Shown: positions 1 through 4,011 of the stretch, in pieces
How the letters are laid out: every line of letters starts with the position of its first letter
How positions within the stretch are numbered: the first letter of the stretch is position 1
Virus record (IMG/VR): IMGVR_UViG_2698536379_000010
Strand: one strand, 5' to 3'
DNA from: a virus
Lineage: Duplodnaviria > Heunggongvirae > Uroviricota > Caudoviricetes
Length of the DNA stretch: 4,011 nt
Translations under genes and position numbers: made by a program
Notes under the pieces: model-generated
The model's database searches: none
The model's input: only the letters and a program-made list of their open reading frames with translations
Told to the model about the DNA's origin: nothing

Positions 1-79
1 CATATTCGCCCTGACTTTCCAGAACCATACGAACTGCCCGTTGACGGACCTCGGGGGAAAAACGTGTATTTTTAGTCAT
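1..79 (-). CDS. IS3-family transposase OrfA (helix-turn-helix N-terminal protein), N-terminal 26 codons; truncated by window edge
   Basis: ATG at 79..77 on the - strand, preceded by AGAGG with ~8 nt spacing. Translation is MTKNTRFSPEVRQRAVRMVLESQGEY, open to the window edge. The other two frames on this strand segment are not relevant; the sense (+) frames 1 and 3 are closed by stops. Confidence 0.85.
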   Translation of the reverse strand, partial: MTKNTRFSPEVRQRAVRMVLESQGEY

Positions 80-108
80 CCTGTTTACCTCTTTCTCAGG
101 GAGTTTAG

Positions 109-133
109 TCTCCAGGATTCCCGGGGCGGTTCA
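109..133 (-). repeat. Terminal inverted repeat (left IR) of the IS3-family element; extent approximate
   Basis: The terminal ~25 nt on the - strand are TGAACCGCCCCGGGAATCCTGGAGA, beginning with the TG dinucleotide typical of IS3-family ends. The inner boundary cannot be set without the other end, which is outside the window. Confidence 0.55.
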
Positions 134-547
134 ATAAAAGGGATTGGCAGTGTACTGGGATTTGATCTCAGCAGCCTTTCCCTGAATGCCAATGGGGGGA
201 TTTATCAGTCTGCTGATTTGAGTCGTTACAGTGGCACGGTGGTTAACCGTCCGACGTTTTTTGCTTTTGCAAAAGGCGCGGGTGTGATGGGGGAAGCGGG
301 ACCTGAAGCCATTCTGCCATTGCGTCGTGGTGCTGACGGTAAGCTGGGGGTTGTGGCGGATATTGGGGGTTCAGGTATGGCGATGTTTTCCCCGCAGTAC
401 AACATCGAGATCAATAACGATGGCACGAACGGGCAGATAGGTCCGGCTGCCCTGAAGGCGGTTTATGACCTCGGGAAAAAAGCGGCAGCGGACTTTATGC
501 AACAGCAGGCCCGTGATGGTGGTCGGTTAAGTGGAGCATATCGGTAA
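134..547 (+). pseudogene. H: Tail tape measure protein (lambda gpH-like), 3'-terminal fragment (137 codons) of a gene interrupted by the IS insertion
   Basis: Frame 2 is open from the IS junction to TAA at 545..547. The C-terminus ...NIEINNDGTNGQIGPAALKAVYDLGKKAAADFMQQQARDGGRLSGAYR resembles the lambda gpH C-terminus as I recall it (...INNDGTNGQIGPAALKAVYD...RDGG...). Its stop overlaps the M start (TAATG). The upstream part of the track ORF (41..133) is antisense IS sequence, not H. Confidence 0.8.
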
Positions 548-876
548 TGGAGACGTTTCACTGGAAAGTGCGCCCGGATATGAATGTGGTATCAGAGCCG
601 AAAGTGGTGACAGTGAAGCTGGGCGATGGTTATGAACAGCGTCGTGCGGCGGGACTGAATAACCAGTTGTCGACTTACAGCGTGACGATACGTGTTCGTA
701 AATGTGAACACCCATCTTTAAAAGCCTTTCTGGAACGGCACGGTGGCGTCCGTGCATTTCAGTGGACGCCACCTTATGACTGGAAACCGATCAGGGTGGT
801 TTGTCGTAAATGGTCGGCAAGCGTGGGGGCGCTGTGGGTAACCATAACGGCAGATTTTGAACAGGTCGTGGCATAG
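547..876 (+). CDS. M: Tail tip assembly protein M (lambda gpM homolog), 109 aa
   Basis: ATG at 547 overlaps the H stop (TAATG), with GGAG about 10 nt upstream. Length is identical to lambda gpM (109 aa) and it sits between H and L. Motifs GDGY, TYSV, WTPPY and the C-terminal FEQVV match my recollection of gpM. Confidence 0.9.
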   Translation: METFHWKVRPDMNVVSEPKVVTVKLGDGYEQRRAAGLNNQLSTYSVTIRVRKCEHPSLKAFLERHGGVRAFQWTPPYDWKPIRVVCRKWSASVGALWVTITADFEQVVA

Positions 877-880
877 GAGG
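875..880 (+). promoter_or_regulatory. Shine-Dalgarno sequence (AGGAGG) for gene L
   Basis: AGGAGG lies 5 nt upstream of the ATG at 886 and overlaps the M stop codon TAG (874..876). Confidence 0.6.
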
Positions 881-885
881 CTCTG

Positions 886-1584
886 ATGCAGGATATTCCA
901 CAGGAAACACATCATGAGACGACACGCCTCACTCAGTCAGCCCAGGCGGTGCTCTGGGAAATCGATCTGACAGAGGTCGGTGGTGAACGTTATTTTTTCT
1001 GTAATGAGCAGAACGAAAAAGGTGAGCCGGTTACCTGGCAGGGGCGGCAGTATCAGGCATACCCCATTCAGGGGACGGGATTTGAACTGAACGGCAAGGG
1101 CAGTGCTGCCCGTCCGACACTGACGGTTTCTAACCTGCACGGCATGGTCACGGGGATGGCGGAAGACCTGCAGAGTCTGGTCGGCGGAACGGTGGTCCGG
1201 CGTAAGGTTTACGCCCGTTTTCTGGATGCGGTGAACTTCGTCAACGGAAACAGCGACGCCGATCCGGAGCAGGAGGTGATCAGCCGCTGGCGCATCGAGC
1301 AGTGCAGCGAACTGAGTGCGGTGAGTGCCTCCTTTGTACTGTCCACGCCAACGGAAACGGATGGCGCTGTTTTTCCGGGACGTATCATGCTGGCCAACAC
1401 CTGCACCTGGACCTATCGCGGTGATGAGTGCGGTTATCACGGTCCGGCAGTCGCGGATGAATATGACCAGCCGACGTCCGATATCACGAAGGATAAATGC
1501 AGCAAATGCCTGAGTGGCTGTAAGTTTCGCAATAACCTCGGCAACTTTGGCGGCTTCCTTTCCATTAACAAACTTTCACAGTGA
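886..1584 (+). CDS. L: Tail tip protein L (lambda gpL homolog), 232 aa, with a Cys-rich C-terminal region
   Basis: ATG at 886 after a strong ribosome-binding site. Length of 232 aa equals lambda gpL, with conserved position between M and K. Five clustered cysteines lie in the C-terminal ~60 residues (ANTC, DEC, DKC, SKC, SGC). The stop TGA (1582..1584) overlaps the K start. Confidence 0.92.
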   Translation: MQDIPQETHHETTRLTQSAQAVLWEIDLTEVGGERYFFCNEQNEKGEPVTWQGRQYQAYPIQGTGFELNGKGSAARPTLTVSNLHGMVTGMAEDLQSLVGGTVVRRKVYARFLDAVNFVNGNSDADPEQEVISRWRIEQCSELSAVSASFVLSTPTETDGAVFPGRIMLANTCTWTYRGDECGYHGPAVADEYDQPTSDITKDKCSKCLSGCKFRNNLGNFGGFLSINKLSQ

Positions 1585-2333
1585 ATCCCATGACAGAGAC
1601 AGAATCAGCGATTCTGGCGCACGCCCGGCGATGTGCGCCAGCGGAGTCGTGCGGCTTCGTGGTGAGAACGCCGGAAGGGGAAAGATATTTTCCCTGCGTG
1701 AATATCTCCGGTGAGCCGGAGGCGTATTTCCGGATGTCGCCGGAGTACTGGCTGCGGGCAGAGATGCAGGGTGAGATTGTGGCGCTGGTCCACAGCCACC
1801 CCGGTGGTCTGCCCTGGCTGAGTGAGGCCGACCGGCGGCTGCAGGTGCAGAGTGATTTGCCGTGGTGGCTGGTCTGCCGGGGAGTGATTCATAAGTTCCG
1901 CTGTGTGCCGCATCTTACCGGGCGGCGCTTTGAGCACGGGGTGACGGACTGTTACACGCTGTTCCGGGATGCTTACCATCTGGCGGGGATTGAGATGCCG
2001 GATTTTCATCGCGAGGATGACTGGTGGCGTAACGGTCAGAATCTCTATCTGGATAATCTGGAGGCCACAGGGCTGTATCAGGTGCCGTTGTCAGCGGCGC
2101 AGCCGGGCGATGTACTGCTGTGCTGTTTTGGTTCATCGGTGCCGAATCATGCCGCCATTTACTGTGGTGACGGCGAGCTGCTGCACCATATTCCTGAACA
2201 ACTGAGCAAACGAGAGAGGTATACCGACAAATGGCAGCGACGCACACACTCCCTCTGGCGTCACCGGGCATGGCACGCATCTGCCTTTACGGGGATTTAC
2301 AACGATTTGGCCGCCGCATCGACCTTCGTGTAA
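1581..2333 (+). CDS. K: Tail tip assembly protein K (lambda gpK homolog) with N-terminal JAB/MPN metalloprotease domain and C-terminal NlpC/P60-like domain; start codon uncertain (GTG 1581, ATG 1590 or internal ATG 1734)
   Basis: The frame is open from GTG 1581 (overlapping the L stop as GTGA) to TAA 2331..2333, and the first ATG is at 1590. The JAB/MPN motif H-S-H-P-x6-S-x2-D (HSHPGGLPWLSEAD, nt 1791..1832) and an upstream E-x-C-G (AESCGFVV, Glu at 1644..1646) are present. Cys (1950..1952) and two downstream His residues are arranged as in NlpC/P60 enzymes. Confidence 0.9.
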   Translation: MNPMTETESAILAHARRCAPAESCGFVVRTPEGERYFPCVNISGEPEAYFRMSPEYWLRAEMQGEIVALVHSHPGGLPWLSEADRRLQVQSDLPWWLVCRGVIHKFRCVPHLTGRRFEHGVTDCYTLFRDAYHLAGIEMPDFHREDDWWRNGQNLYLDNLEATGLYQVPLSAAQPGDVLLCCFGSSVPNHAAIYCGDGELLHHIPEQLSKRERYTDKWQRRTHSLWRHRAWHASAFTGIYNDLAAASTFV

Positions 2334-2878
2334 AAACGGGGGCCGAAGCCATCCGGGCGCTGGCCATGCAGATCCCGGCGTTTCGTCAGAAGCTGAGCGA
2401 CGGCTGGTATCAGGTACGGATTGCCGGGCGTGATACAGGTGAAAATGAATTATCATCCCGTCTTAATGAGCCGCTGGCAAATGGTGCAGTGATCCACATC
2501 GTGCCGCGCCTGGCGGGTGCCAAAAGTGGCGGTGTGTTTCAGGCAGTGCTGGGTGCGGCGCTGATTGCGGTGGCATGGTGGAACCCTGTGGGCTGGCTGG
2601 GGGCCGCGGCTGTATCGGGTATGTATGCAGCAGGGGCCAGTATGATCCTGGGTGGTGTGGCGCAGATGCTGGCACCGAAAGCCAGAACTCCCCGTACACA
2701 GACAACGGATAACGGTAAGCAGAACACCTATTTCTCCTCACTGGATAATATGGTTGCCCAGGGCAATGTTCTGCCTGTTCTGTACGGTGAAATGCGCGTG
2801 GGGTCACGTGTTGTCTCTCAGGAGATCAGCACGGCAGACGAGGGGGACGGTGGTCAGGTTGTGGTGATTGGTCGTTGA
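2231..2878 (+). CDS. I: Tail tip assembly protein I (lambda gpI homolog), 215 aa; N-terminal ubiquitin-like/beta-grasp region followed by a Gly/Ala-rich hydrophobic segment
   Basis: ATG at 2231 is the first start codon after an in-frame TGA at 2195..2197, with GAGAGAGG 11 nt upstream. It overlaps the K 3' end by 103 nt in a different frame, which is the arrangement I recall for lambda K/I. The stop is TGA at 2876..2878. Confidence 0.88.
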   Translation: MAATHTLPLASPGMARICLYGDLQRFGRRIDLRVKTGAEAIRALAMQIPAFRQKLSDGWYQVRIAGRDTGENELSSRLNEPLANGAVIHIVPRLAGAKSGGVFQAVLGAALIAVAWWNPVGWLGAAAVSGMYAAGASMILGGVAQMLAPKARTPRTQTTDNGKQNTYFSSLDNMVAQGNVLPVLYGEMRVGSRVVSQEISTADEGDGGQVVVIGR

Positions 2879-2896
2879 TGAAAAACGTTTTATGTG

Positions 2897-2926
2897 AAAC
2901 CGCCTCAGGGCGGTTTTGTCGTTTCT
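2897..2926 (+). terminator. Stem-loop with T-rich tail in the I-J intergenic spacer (possible weak intrinsic terminator or RNA stability element)
   Basis: AAACCGCC (2897..2904), loop TCAG, then GGCGGTTT (2909..2916) form a perfect 8-bp stem, followed by TGTCGTTTCT. It sits in the 60-nt gap between the I stop and the J start. Confidence 0.4.
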
Positions 2927-2938
2927 GGAGCGTGAGGA

Positions 2939-4011
2939 ATGGGTAAAGGCAGCAGTAAGGGGCATACCCCGCGCGAAGCGAAGGACAACCTGAAATCATC
3001 CCAGATGCTGAGCGTGATAGACGCCATCAGCGAAGGACCGATTGAAGGTCCGGTGGATGGATTAAAAAGCGTGCTGCTGAACAGTACGCCAGTGCTGGAC
3101 AGTGAAGGTAATACCAACATCTCCGGTGTCACGGTGGTGTTCCGGGCCGGTGAGCAGGAGCAGACACCGCCGGAGGGATTTGAATCCTCCGGTTCTGAGA
3201 CGGTGCTGGGTACGGAAGTGAAATACGACACGCCGATCACCCGCACCATCACGTCGGCAAACATCGATCGTCTGCGCTTTACTTTCGGTGTGCAGGCACT
3301 GCGGGAAACCACCTCAAAGGGGGACCGGGATCCGTCGGAAGTCCGCCTGCTGGTTCAGATACAGCGTAATGGTGGCTGGGTGACGGAAAAAGACATCACC
3401 ATTAAGGGCAAAACCACGTCGCAGTATCTGGCCTCGGTGGTGGTGGATAACCTGCCGCCGCGCCCGTTTAATATCCGGATGCGCAGGATGACGCCGGACA
3501 GCACCACAGACCAGCTGCAGAACAAAACGCTCTGGTCGTCATACACCGAAATCATCGATGTGAAACAGTGCTACCCGAACACGGCACTGGTTGGCGTGCA
3601 GGTGGACTCGGAGCAGTTTGGCAGTCAGCAGGTGAGCCGTAATTATCATCTTCGCGGGCGCATTCTGCAGGTGCCGTCAAACTATGATCCGGAAAAACGC
3701 ACTTACAGCGGCATCTGGGACGGAACGTTAAAACCGGCATACAGCAACAACATGGCCTGGTGTCTGTGGGATATGCTGACCCACCCGCGCTACGGCATGG
3801 GGAAACGTCTTGGTGCGGCGGATGTGGATAAATGGGCGCTGTATGTCATCGGCCAGTACTGCGACCAGTCAGTACCGGACGGCTTTGGCGGCACGGAGCC
3901 GCGCATCACCTGTAATGCGTACCTGACCACGCAGCGCAAGGCGTGGGATGTGCTCAGTGATTTCTGCTCGGCGATGCGCTGTATGCCGGTATGGAACGGG
4001 CAGACGCTGAC
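2939..4011 (+). CDS. J: Tail tip/central tail fiber protein J (lambda gpJ homolog), N-terminal 357 codons; continues beyond window end
   Basis: ATG at 2939 is preceded by GAGG (2934..2937). Frame 2 has no stop through to the window end, which is why it is absent from the ORF track. The translation MGKGSSKGHTPREAKDNLKSSQMLSVIDAISEGPIEGPVDGLKSVLLNSTPVLD... closely matches the lambda gpJ N-terminus as I recall it. Confidence 0.93.
   Translation, partial: MGKGSSKGHTPREAKDNLKSSQMLSVIDAISEGPIEGPVDGLKSVLLNSTPVLDSEGNTNISGVTVVFRAGEQEQTPPEGFESSGSETVLGTEVKYDTPITRTITSANIDRLRFTFGVQALRETTSKGDRDPSEVRLLVQIQRNGGWVTEKDITIKGKTTSQYLASVVVDNLPPRPFNIRMRRMTPDSTTDQLQNKTLWSSYTEIIDVKQCYPNTALVGVQVDSEQFGSQQVSRNYHLRGRILQVPSNYDPEKRTYSGIWDGTLKPAYSNNMAWCLWDMLTHPRYGMGKRLGAADVDKWALYVIGQYCDQSVPDGFGGTEPRITCNAYLTTQRKAWDVLSDFCSAMRCMPVWNGQTL

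What the first reader, a model, noticed from the sequence alone, without database searches (positions are those of the whole stretch)
1581..2878. Adjacent JAB protease (K) and ubiquitin-like protein (I): a phage Ubl-protease pair
K combines a JAB/MPN metalloprotease motif with an NlpC/P60-like Cys-His-His arrangement (Cys at 1950..1952). The next gene, I, has an N-terminal region that in lambda gpI has been proposed, as I recall, to be a ubiquitin-like beta-grasp domain, here ending near ...PRLAGAKSGG (Gly-Gly at 2528..2533). That is followed by a Gly/Ala-rich hydrophobic stretch (VFQAVLGAALIAVAWWNPVGWLGAAAVSGMYAAGASMILGGVAQMLAP, about 2534..2677). This layout suggests K could process I or another tail-tip protein at or near the GG, by analogy with ubiquitin/deubiquitinase systems. 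As far as I know this is poorly characterised experimentally.
Basis: partly seen in the sequence, partly recalled or inferred. Interest (0 to 1): 0.5.

Follow-up and report, generated by a model that had tools for sequence, protein, structure and literature searches.

The report
Lambda tail protease–ubiquitin-like pair
These are the phage lambda tail-tip genes K (a double protease) and I (a plug protein made with a ubiquitin-like cap that K cuts off during tail assembly); the reading is correct but was predicted in 2006 and has since been reported experimentally, so it is not new.

Summary
The window is a lambdoid prophage tail-tip operon (H'-M-L-K-I-J). K (1590-2333) has a Prok-JAB and an NlpC/P60 domain. 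Both catalytic motifs are invariant in 24 K proteins, 16 of them from distant phages. I (2231/2270-2878) is a Lambda_tail_I protein. Its N-terminal 80 residues fold with high confidence as a beta-grasp closest to MoaD, CysO, SAMP1, Urm1 and ubiquitin. Two hydrophobic helices and the plug domain seen in lambda virions follow.

Iyer, Burroughs and Aravind proposed it in 2006. A 2025 plenary talk by A. [quoted passage not shown] Lambda cryo-EM models start at gpI residue 101 or 134/135. The F-pyocin homologue loses its N-terminus only in mature particles.

One refinement: the most conserved feature is P-x-x-x-G-[A/S], which aligns weakly with MoaD's terminal Gly-Gly. The scissile bond probably lies within A-K-S-G-G (2519-2533).

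Side notes: an IS1203 end truncates gene H, and the lambda reference K is mis-annotated because one base is missing.

The parts
1590..2333 (+). Gene K (tail tip assembly protein K, 247 aa; an alternative GTG start at 1581 is probably not used)
   Evidence: ORF. Pfam Prok-JAB plus NlpC/P60. phrog_30 at E 4e-162. 98% identical to 247-aa clusters annotated as phage tail protein or C40 family peptidase.
1599..1883 (+). JAB/MPN (JAMM) metalloprotease domain of K. Motif residues: Glu19 at 1644-1646, His68-Ser-His70 at 1791-1799, Ser78 at 1821-1823, Asp81 at 1830-1832.
   Evidence: Pfam PF14464 at E 1.2e-13. E19, H68, S69, H70, S78 and D81 are invariant in 24 K proteins, 16 of them from distant phages. 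The AF2 model best matches P. furiosus JAMM1 (5ld9/5lda), Rpn11, CSN5 and AMSH.
1920..2261 (+). NlpC/P60 (papain-like) peptidase domain of K. Residues: Cys121 at 1950-1952, His187 at 2148-2150, His199 at 2184-2186.
   Evidence: Pfam PF00877 at E 5.9e-13. D120, C121, H187 and H199 are invariant in 24 K proteins. Fold hits to MepS/Spr and the C. difficile autolysin Acd33800.
2231..2878 (+). Gene I (tail tip assembly / plug protein I). It is 215 aa from ATG 2231 and 202 aa from ATG 2270.
   Evidence: ORF. Pfam PF06805 at E 4.5e-23. phrog_32. A profile of I homologues matches lambda gpI chain 8iyk_I at E 1e-78. Distant homologues start at the Met14 equivalent.
2270..2521 (+). Ubiquitin-like beta-grasp domain of I (Met14 to Ala97 in lambda numbering; residues 1-84 counted from Met14)
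   Evidence: AF2 pLDDT of 95-98 for residues 1-80, with topology b-b-a-a-b-b-a-b. Foldseek hits to MoaD, CysO, SAMP1, Urm1 and ubiquitin.
2504..2533 (+). Flexible C-terminal tail of the ubiquitin-like domain, P-R-L-A-G-A-K-S-G-G. It contains the conserved P79, G83, A84 and G88 and is the likely cleavage region (the bond itself is probably within 2519-2533).
   Evidence: Column counts: P79 62/62, G83 61/62, A/S/G84 62/62, G87 17/62, G88 54/62; G83 and G88 are 17/17 in the phage-genome set (window plus 16 phages). pLDDT falls to 62 here. Profile position 83 aligns with residue 73 of the 74-residue MoaD 3rpf_C (E 0.35, weak). The lambda gpI model begins at residue 101, which equals G88 (PMC11101478).
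2534..2677 (+). Gly/Ala-rich hydrophobic segment forming two predicted helices (H1/H2 of gpI)
   Evidence: Hydropathy and composition. AF2 helices at 86-104 and 112-134. In lambda these helices surround the C-terminus of gpH and are predicted to be membrane-inserting (PMC11101478; PMC10721106).
2678..2875 (+). C-terminal plug (TAPI-C) domain of I, retained in the virion
   Evidence: Aligns with lambda gpI residues resolved in tail-tip cryo-EM. Conserved motif FS.L.N..AQG..VP..YG.
2270..2333 (+). Out-of-frame overlap of the 3' end of K with the 5' end of I (64 nt from ATG 2270; 103 nt from ATG 2231)
   Evidence: Coordinates and frames. The same 103-nt overlap is annotated in lambda NC_001416.
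886..1584 (+). Gene L (context: the tip hub protein that I and K act together with)
   Evidence: Pfam Phage_tail_L at E 3e-99.
2939..4011 (+). 5' part of gene J (context: the central tail fibre, onto which I assembles)
   Evidence: Pfam FNIII-A_GpJ at E 1e-41. Annotation of the matching phages.

Best explanation
K and I are the lambda-type tail-tip maturation pair.

**How I is built.** I is made as a precursor with four parts:
- a MoaD/ubiquitin-like beta-grasp domain,
- a short flexible Gly-containing tail (P-R-L-A-G-A-K-S-G-G),
- two hydrophobic helices,
- a C-terminal plug domain.

**Proposed sequence of events.**
1. The precursor joins the J trimer together with L.
2. The zinc JAB/JAMM domain of K recognises the beta-grasp domain and hydrolyses the peptide bond at the end of its tail, probably within A-K-S-G-G (nt 2519-2533).
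3. The ubiquitin-like domain and K both leave.
4. The hydrophobic helices and plug stay in the tip lumen, where they grip the C-terminus of the tape-measure protein H and seal the tube.

The removable domain would keep the hydrophobic segment soluble. It would also act as a checkpoint, so the tip cannot bind H or the tube until it is complete.

**What is shown here.** Gene identity, both K active sites intact and invariant, the beta-grasp fold, the conserved tail, and the domain order.

**What is taken from the literature.**
- Cleavage by K and its timing.
- Absence of the N-terminal domain and of K from virions.

**What is inferred.**
- The JAB site rather than the NlpC/P60 site does the cutting.
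- The exact bond.
- The solubility role (my inference) and the checkpoint role (proposed in the F-pyocin preprint and implied by the Davidson talk).

In this particular prophage an IS1203 copy truncates gene H. The pair is intact but probably cannot build a tail here without help.
For: **Domain assignments**
- Pfam: K = Prok-JAB plus NlpC/P60; I = Lambda_tail_I.
- PHROGs: phrog_30 and phrog_32.

**Catalytic sites of K**
- JAMM residues E19, H68-S-H70, S78 and D81 are invariant in 24 K proteins, 16 of them from phages of Mannheimia, Ralstonia, Burkholderia, Halomonas, Moraxella, Acinetobacter, Vibrio, Pseudomonas and the T1, Rtp and Dhillonvirus groups.
- NlpC/P60 residues C121, H187 and H199 are invariant in the same set.
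- The K model is closest to archaeal JAMM1, including its complex with the MoaD-like SAMP2 (5lda).

**Fold and tail of I**
- AF2 gives pLDDT about 97 for the N-terminal domain, dropping at the tail.
- Foldseek hits are MoaD, CysO, SAMP1, Urm1 and ubiquitin.
- The P79/G83/[A,S]84/G88 tail is conserved.

**Co-occurrence**
- A K gene with both domains was found with I in all 16 distant phage genomes examined, even where morons separate the two genes.

**Literature**
- Prediction of JAB-mediated release of the Ubl at its C-terminal Gly: PMC1779556.
- gpI resolved only from residue 101 (PMC11101478) or 134/135.
- gpK not detected in virions by mass spectrometry.
- The N-terminus of F-pyocin PA0640 is detected in assembly-stalled tips but not in mature particles, and deleting the K homologue PA0639 gives tip-less tubes.
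Against: - The experimental claim is available to me only as a meeting summary. I could not see primary data, the cleavage site or the active-site mutants.
- The NlpC/P60 triad is as strictly conserved as the JAMM motif, so sequence alone cannot say which site cuts I.
- Missing cryo-EM density could reflect disorder rather than cleavage. The lambda virion mass-spectrometry table lists only one gpI peptide.
- PA0640 expressed alone in E. coli loses its N-terminus to unknown host proteases, so removal need not strictly require K.
- The alignment of G83-A84 with MoaD's terminal Gly-Gly rests on a weak profile match (E 0.35).
Confidence: 0.85

Rival explanations
1. K does remove the ubiquitin-like domain, but the papain-like NlpC/P60 site (Cys121-His187-His199) makes the cut, as in most eukaryotic deubiquitinases. 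The JAB domain would only bind the Ubl or act on something else.
For: The Cys-His-His triad is invariant in all 24 K proteins. Iyer et al. raised the possibility that the NlpC/P60 peptidase also processes the Ub-related protein, and noted prophages whose K has only an NlpC/P60 domain.
Against: The JAMM motif is equally invariant. The closest structural relative of the K N-domain is a JAMM that cleaves MoaD-like SAMPs. In the NlpC-only K variants the JAB is reported to be fused to I rather than lost (phrog_35166 looks like such a JAB-I fusion). The meeting summary attributes the activity to K's 'deubiquitinating domain'.
Confidence: 0.1
2. There is no specific K-dependent cleavage. The N-terminal domain of I is simply flexible, or is trimmed by host proteases, and K acts as a non-catalytic assembly chaperone or on another substrate.
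For: Missing density is compatible with disorder. Recombinant PA0640 loses its N-terminus in E. coli without its K partner.
Against: Two invariant catalytic sites in K argue for enzymatic function. The N-terminus of PA0640 is detected by mass spectrometry in stalled tips but not in mature particles. The Davidson report states cleavage by gpK directly.
Confidence: 0.04
3. The JAB domain of K is mainly a counter-defence deubiquitinase. It would strip host Bil-type ubiquitin-like proteins from the central tail fibre J, and its link to I would be secondary.
For: Hör et al. suggested this for phage tail-assembly proteins with DUB domains (bioRxiv 10.1101/2023.09.04.556158). K acts on the J-containing tip complex.
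Against: Bil strongly protects against SECphi4, a Dhillonvirus. A Dhillonvirus K (PTXU06) has intact JAMM and NlpC/P60 motifs, so having K does not confer escape; this is inferred at genus level. K co-occurs with the Ubl-bearing I far beyond hosts known to carry Bil. [quoted passage not shown]
Confidence: 0.05

Closest known systems
Phage lambda gpK / gpI (TAPK / TAPI of Iyer, Burroughs and Aravind 2006; Pfam PF14464+PF00877 and PF06805)
   Same: Same genes, same order (L-K-I-J) and same 103-nt K/I overlap. The tail motif VPR[LV]AGAKSGG and the C-terminal plug domain (from ...GGVAQMLAPKARTPR to the end) are near-identical.
   Different: The hydrophobic linker is 8 residues shorter than in lambda and differs in sequence (215 vs 223 aa). 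This copy sits in a prophage whose tape-measure gene is cut by IS1203. K here is an intact 247-aa ORF, whereas the lambda reference record annotates only 199 aa.
F-type pyocin PA0639 / PA0640 of Pseudomonas aeruginosa
   Same: Homologous K-like maturation factor and I-like tip plug. Only the C-terminal part of the plug (127-200) is seen. The N-terminal domain is removed on maturation, and the K homologue is absent from particles but required for tips.
   Different: It is a tailocin, not a phage. The protease responsible had not been assigned in that preprint.
Archaeal JAMM1 with SAMP1/SAMP2 (PDB 5ld9, 5lda, 3po0, 2l52)
   Same: A small stand-alone JAMM metalloprotease paired with a MoaD-like beta-grasp protein. 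These are the best structural matches for both halves of the pair.
   Different: SAMPs are conjugated by an E1 and removed again (from my own knowledge). Here there is no E1 or E2 in the operon, and the Ubl is made as an N-terminal fusion and removed once. K carries an extra NlpC/P60 domain.
Eukaryotic ubiquitin precursors processed by deubiquitinases (Rpn11, CSN5 and AMSH-type JAMMs)
   Same: The Ubl is translated in frame with another protein and released by hydrolysis after its C-terminal glycine tail. The JAMM fold and the E/HxH/S/D motif are shared.
   Different: The tail reads G-A-K-S-G-G rather than L-R-G-G. The released Ubl has no known later use, and the retained product is the structural protein.
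MoaD / ThiS / CysO sulphur-carrier proteins
   Same: Closest fold (TM 0.69-0.75 on the target). The conserved Gly aligns, weakly, with the penultimate Gly of MoaD.
   Different: There is no free C-terminus before cleavage, and no MoeB/ThiF or MoaE partner in the operon. The final residue is Ala or Ser in most members rather than Gly.
Phage T5 baseplate hub pb3 plug domain
   Same: A trimeric plug that closes the tube at the same position and is thought to insert in the outer membrane (PMC10721106).
   Different: It is an insertion within one large hub protein. According to that paper's gene comparison there is no counterpart of K.

Membership tests
Lambda tail assembly protein I (TAPI; Pfam PF06805, phrog_32) | N-terminal MoaD/ThiS-like beta-grasp domain | tested here: met
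   PF06805 at E 4.5e-23 over aa 14-97. AF2 pLDDT about 97. Foldseek MoaD at E 6.7e-5, plus CysO, SAMP1, Urm1 and ubiquitin.
Lambda tail assembly protein I (TAPI; Pfam PF06805, phrog_32) | Conserved glycine at the C-terminal end of the beta-grasp domain | tested here: met
   G83 (nt 2516-2518) is present in 61/62 representatives and 17/17 proteins of the phage-genome set (window plus 16 phages). It is followed by Ala, Ser or Gly in 62/62.
Lambda tail assembly protein I (TAPI; Pfam PF06805, phrog_32) | Gly-rich hydrophobic linker followed by the C-terminal TAPI-C plug domain | tested here: met
   Composition and hydropathy. A profile of I homologues headed by the window protein matches lambda gpI 8iyk_I at E 1e-78 along its full length.
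Lambda tail assembly protein I (TAPI; Pfam PF06805, phrog_32) | Gene lies between K and J in a siphophage tail-tip operon | tested here: met
   Order H'-M-L-K-I-J.
Lambda tail assembly protein I (TAPI; Pfam PF06805, phrog_32) | N-terminal domain removed proteolytically during tip maturation | not testable with these tools
   Known only from the literature on lambda and F-pyocin.
Lambda tail assembly protein K (TAPK; JAB + NlpC/P60, phrog_30) | JAMM motif: Glu, HxH, Ser, Asp | tested here: met
   E19, H68-S-H70, S78 and D81 are present and invariant in 24 sequences. PF14464 at E 1.2e-13.
Lambda tail assembly protein K (TAPK; JAB + NlpC/P60, phrog_30) | NlpC/P60 catalytic Cys-His-His(polar) triad | tested here: met
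   C121, H187 and H199 are present and invariant. PF00877 at E 5.9e-13.
Lambda tail assembly protein K (TAPK; JAB + NlpC/P60, phrog_30) | Zinc-dependent peptidase activity on gpI; protein absent from virions | not testable with these tools
   Literature only.
Ubiquitin-like conjugation systems (E1/E2/Ubl/DUB; e.g. Bil, CBASS Cap2/Cap3, SAMP) | E1-like adenylating enzyme (and E2) encoded with the Ubl and the JAB | tested here: not met
   The window encodes only IS1203, H', M, L, K, I and J, and no ThiF/E1 or UBC domain was found. It works like the deconjugation half only and is not a conjugation system.
MoaD/ThiS sulphur carriers | Free C-terminal Gly-Gly and a cognate MoeB/ThiF plus synthase partner | tested here: not met
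   The tail is G-A followed by 118 further residues. There is no partner gene in the operon.

The most novel reading that the evidence does not exclude
K's second, equally invariant active site (NlpC/P60 Cys121-His187-His199) may have its own substrate in tail assembly. [quoted passage not shown] The protease for that step is stated to be unknown (PMC12617516), and the gpH C-terminus sits inside the gpI helices that K has just uncovered.
Probability: 0.1. Interest if true: 0.6.

Novelty: already known. Interest (0 to 1): 0.22.

Why it matters
The pair is a textbook example of a ubiquitin-like domain and a JAMM deubiquitinase working together outside eukaryotes. It is used as a one-shot assembly checkpoint in one of the commonest phage tail types: about 1,700 of 50,697 phage records carry an I homologue.

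It matters for three things:
- understanding siphophage and F-tailocin tail assembly,
- engineering tailocins,
- the evolutionary history of ubiquitin signalling.

All of this has already been said in the literature. This window adds one more intact copy and a sharper view of which tail residues are conserved.

Tried and rejected
- **The search for related loci with the 62-sequence I alignment** failed because there was no conserved 7-10-column stretch. I used tblastn against annotated phage records instead and fetched 16 distant loci.
I used 21 closer homologues instead.
- **A K-I fusion or complex model** was considered and dropped. The tool returns no coordinates or contacts, so docking of the tail into either active site could not be read.
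- **The lambda virion mass-spectrometry supplement** lists only one gpI peptide with no position, so it cannot locate the mature N-terminus.
- **The simple terminator scan** did not flag the I-J hairpin. Folding did.
- **No primary paper or preprint from the Davidson group** on K/I cleavage was found in the library.
- **The anti-Bil counter-defence idea** was rejected as the main function: a Bil-sensitive Dhillonvirus genus carries an intact K.
- **A sulphur-carrier role for the freed Ubl** (in connection with the Fe-S cluster of gpL) was considered and set aside. The operon has no E1 or synthase partner, and most members end in Ala or Ser rather than Gly.
- **The suggestion that the gpI N-terminus is the missing peptidoglycan hydrolase** (PMC11101478) does not fit a MoaD-like beta-grasp with no catalytic motif.
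Full report
**What is in the window**

Six-frame ORFs, Pfam and BLAST show a lambdoid prophage tail-tip operon on the + strand:

| Feature | Coordinates |
|---|---|
| 3' remnant of tape-measure gene H | 134-547 |
| M | 547-876 |
| L | 886-1584 |
| K | 1590-2333 |
| I | 2231/2270-2878 |
| Start of J | 2939 onward |

The DNA is about 96% identical to phages mEp460, Ayreon and cdtI. Positions 134-4011 are 100% identical to a prophage of E. coli O55:H7 DEC5E.

**Check of the observation**

- HSH is at 1791-1799.
- The Cys codon is at 1950-1952.
- Gly-Gly (GGCGGT) is at 2528-2533, at the end of PRLAGAKSGG.
- The Gly/Ala-rich hydrophobic stretch is at 2534-2677.

Pfam places K in Prok-JAB (E 1.2e-13) plus NlpC/P60 (E 5.9e-13), and I in Lambda_tail_I (E 4.5e-23, aa 14-97). 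PHROGs gives phrog_30 and phrog_32.

**K: two live active sites**

I aligned K from the window with K from 16 distant phages and 7 closer database proteins. The distant phages infect Mannheimia, Ralstonia, Burkholderia, Proteus, Halomonas, Moraxella, Acinetobacter, Klebsiella, Pseudomonas (two phages) and Vibrio, or are HK75 and members of the Rtp-like, T1-like, Tempevirinae and Dhillonvirus groups. Identity falls to 28%.

- The complete JAMM signature is invariant: Glu19, His68-Ser-His70, Ser78, Asp81.
- The NlpC/P60 signature is also invariant: Asp120-Cys121, His187, His199.

An AlphaFold2 model of K (mean pLDDT 82) matches best the Pyrococcus JAMM1 deubiquitinase homologue, including its complex with the MoaD-like SAMP2 (5ld9/5lda). 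Next come Rpn11, CSN5 and AMSH. For the second domain the matches are MepS/Spr and a clostridial autolysin.

**I: a ubiquitin-like cap on a hydrophobic plug protein**

I used 61 representatives of 50%-identity clusters (30-57% identical to the window protein) as the alignment for AlphaFold2. Residues are counted from Met14.

- Residues 1-80 are predicted with pLDDT 95-98 as b-b-a-a-b-b-a-b.
- Confidence drops to about 62 right after Pro79.
- Two long helices follow in the hydrophobic stretch.

Foldseek against the PDB returns MoaD (1fm0_D, E 6.7e-5, TM 0.75 on the target), CysO, SAMP1, Urm1, ThiS and then many ubiquitin chains. The C-terminal half aligns with the part of lambda gpI that is seen in tail-tip structures.

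**Which glycines are conserved**

Counts are from the 62-sequence alignment:

| Position (from Met14) | Conservation |
|---|---|
| Pro79 | 62/62 |
| Gly83 | 61/62 |
| 84 | Ala 48, Ser 12, Gly 2 |
| 85 | Gly or Lys in 56/62 |
| 1-4 variable residues | not conserved |
| Gly88 (second Gly) | 54/62 |

In the set of 17 I proteins (window plus 16 distant phages), Gly83 and Gly88 are both 17/17.

A profile of the Ubl domain alone aligns its position 83 with residue 73 of the 74-residue MoaD 3rpf_C. That makes Gly83-Ala84 the counterpart of MoaD's terminal Gly-Gly, but the match is weak (E 0.35).

Ge and Wang report that lambda gpI is resolved 'from position 101 onward' in the closed tail (PMC11101478). 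Residue 101 is the second Gly of KSGG (alignment). The mature N-terminus therefore lies at or before that residue. The scissile bond most probably lies in A-K-S-G-G (nt 2519-2533).

**What the literature already says**

- **Original prediction.** Iyer, Burroughs and Aravind (Genome Biol 2006, PMC1779556) described the Ubl domain of 'TAPI', its conserved C-terminal glycine, the Gly-rich linker, the JAB plus NlpC/P60 architecture of 'TAPK' and the conserved K-I-J neighbourhood.
- **Experimental report.** The report of the October 2025 bacteriophage conference summarises a plenary by A. Davidson. [quoted passage not shown]
- **Independent support from lambda.** gpK is not found in virions by mass spectrometry or cryo-EM, and only the C-terminal part of gpI is seen (PMC10721106 and PMC12617516).
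- **Independent support from F-pyocin.** The N-terminus of the I homologue PA0640 is detected in assembly-stalled tips but not in mature particles. Deleting the K homologue PA0639 gives tip-less tubes (bioRxiv 10.64898/2026.02.24.707460).

**Mechanism and what remains open**

The best-supported mechanism runs as follows:
1. The precursor I joins J and L.
2. K's JAMM site removes the Ubl cap.
3. K and the cap leave.
4. The uncovered hydrophobic helices and the plug hold the C-terminus of H and seal the tube.

Shown here are the parts and their conservation. Taken from others are the cleavage, its timing and the absence of K and the cap from virions. Inferred are the responsible active site, the exact bond and the solubility role. 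The checkpoint role is proposed in the F-pyocin preprint.

The invariant NlpC/P60 site has no assigned substrate. The protease for gpH to gpH* cleavage is stated to be unknown, which is the basis for the low-probability novel reading.

The idea that the DUB domain counters Bil-type defence is weakened by two facts. Bil protects strongly against a Dhillonvirus, and a Dhillonvirus K has both motifs intact.

**Comparative context**

An I homologue is found in 1,735 of 50,697 phage records. In all 16 distant genomes examined, a K gene with both domains accompanies it.

K and I are not always adjacent:
- Vibrio H20 and Pseudomonas Medea1 have regulatory morons between them.
- HK75, Proteus Pm34 and Pseudomonas CF54a have small ORFs between them.

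No E1 or E2 gene is present in the window. This is a Ubl-fusion plus DUB processing pair, not a conjugation system.

**Verdict**

It restates a published 2006 prediction that has since been reported as experimentally confirmed. Novelty: already known. Interest is low for a specialist. The only residual questions are the exact bond and the role of the second protease domain.

Noticed in passing
window 1-133 (minus strand), junction at 133/134: This is the left end of an IS3-family IS1203/IS629 element. Its inverted repeat TGAACCGCCCCGGG... ends at 133, and the orfA start reads MTKNTRFSPEVRQRAVRMVLESQGEY on the minus strand. It interrupts tape-measure gene H, so this prophage probably cannot make its own tails. 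The IS part and the H part each match E. coli genomes, but this exact junction appeared only as non-collinear two-piece matches among the records listed.
   Followed up: partly
L002 (lambda NC_001416) 3635-3862; window 1718-1735: The lambda reference (J02459/NC_001416) annotates K as 199 aa starting at the equivalent of window Met49 (ATG-1590 numbering; Met52 from the GTG at 1581). That leaves a 148-nt L-K gap and cuts off the JAB N-terminus with its catalytic Glu. The reference is one base shorter here (GAGGCTATTTCCG vs GAGGCGTATTTCCG in the window). Independently sequenced lambda, DE3, imm21, imm434, HK629 and HK630 records span 302 nt against 301 in the reference, and a resequenced lambda (PV340536) annotates a 744-nt K. 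This is probably a one-base error in the 1982 sequence. A 2020 review analysed the 199-aa version and saw only one peptidase domain (PMC7291167).
   Followed up: partly
window 2231-2333: The start of I is uncertain, and the gene overlaps the 3' end of K out of frame by 64 nt (from ATG 2270) or 103 nt (from ATG 2231). Distant homologues begin at the Met14 (2270) equivalent. Some annotations, such as PV340536 and the 182-aa clusters, start I at GTG 2330 to avoid the overlap; that would delete the first two strands of the beta-grasp. The extra C-terminal tail of K (HASAFTGIYNDLAAASTFV) is shared with the Mannheimia phage K but absent from the other 15 distant K homologues aligned.
   Followed up: partly
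window 2885-2933 (I-J intergenic): A strong hairpin (core AAACCGCC-TCAG-GGCGGTTT followed by a T-rich run) folds at -20.7 kcal/mol, z = -3.2 against shuffles. It looks like an intrinsic terminator or attenuator between I and J. HK75 has an annotated terminator at the same position. The simple terminator scan did not list it.
   Followed up: partly
protein database hits P0282, P0305, P0360, P0386, P0048; PHROGs phrog_28576 and phrog_35166: Single polypeptides combine JAB and/or NlpC/P60 with the I domain (K-I fusions). phrog_35166 looks like JAB fused directly to I. Some may be frameshift or assembly artefacts within the K/I overlap. Others match the natural fusions noted by Iyer et al. (2006).
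   Followed up: no
L014/L019 (Vibrio phage H20), L017/L020 (Pseudomonas phage Medea1), L012 (Rtp-like IME253): Unrelated genes are inserted within the tip operon. Anti-repressor, KilA-N and zinc-ribbon genes (H20) or about 3.4 kb containing three regulator genes and several hypothetical ORFs (Medea1) sit between K and I. An HNH endonuclease sits between I and J in IME253. K and I therefore co-occur without strict adjacency.
   Followed up: no
PMC11101478 (lambda tail-LamB structure), discussion: The authors speculate that the unresolved N-terminal part of gpI might be the missing peptidoglycan-cleaving enzyme. The MoaD-like beta-grasp fold found here, and its removal before virion completion, argue against that.
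   Followed up: partly
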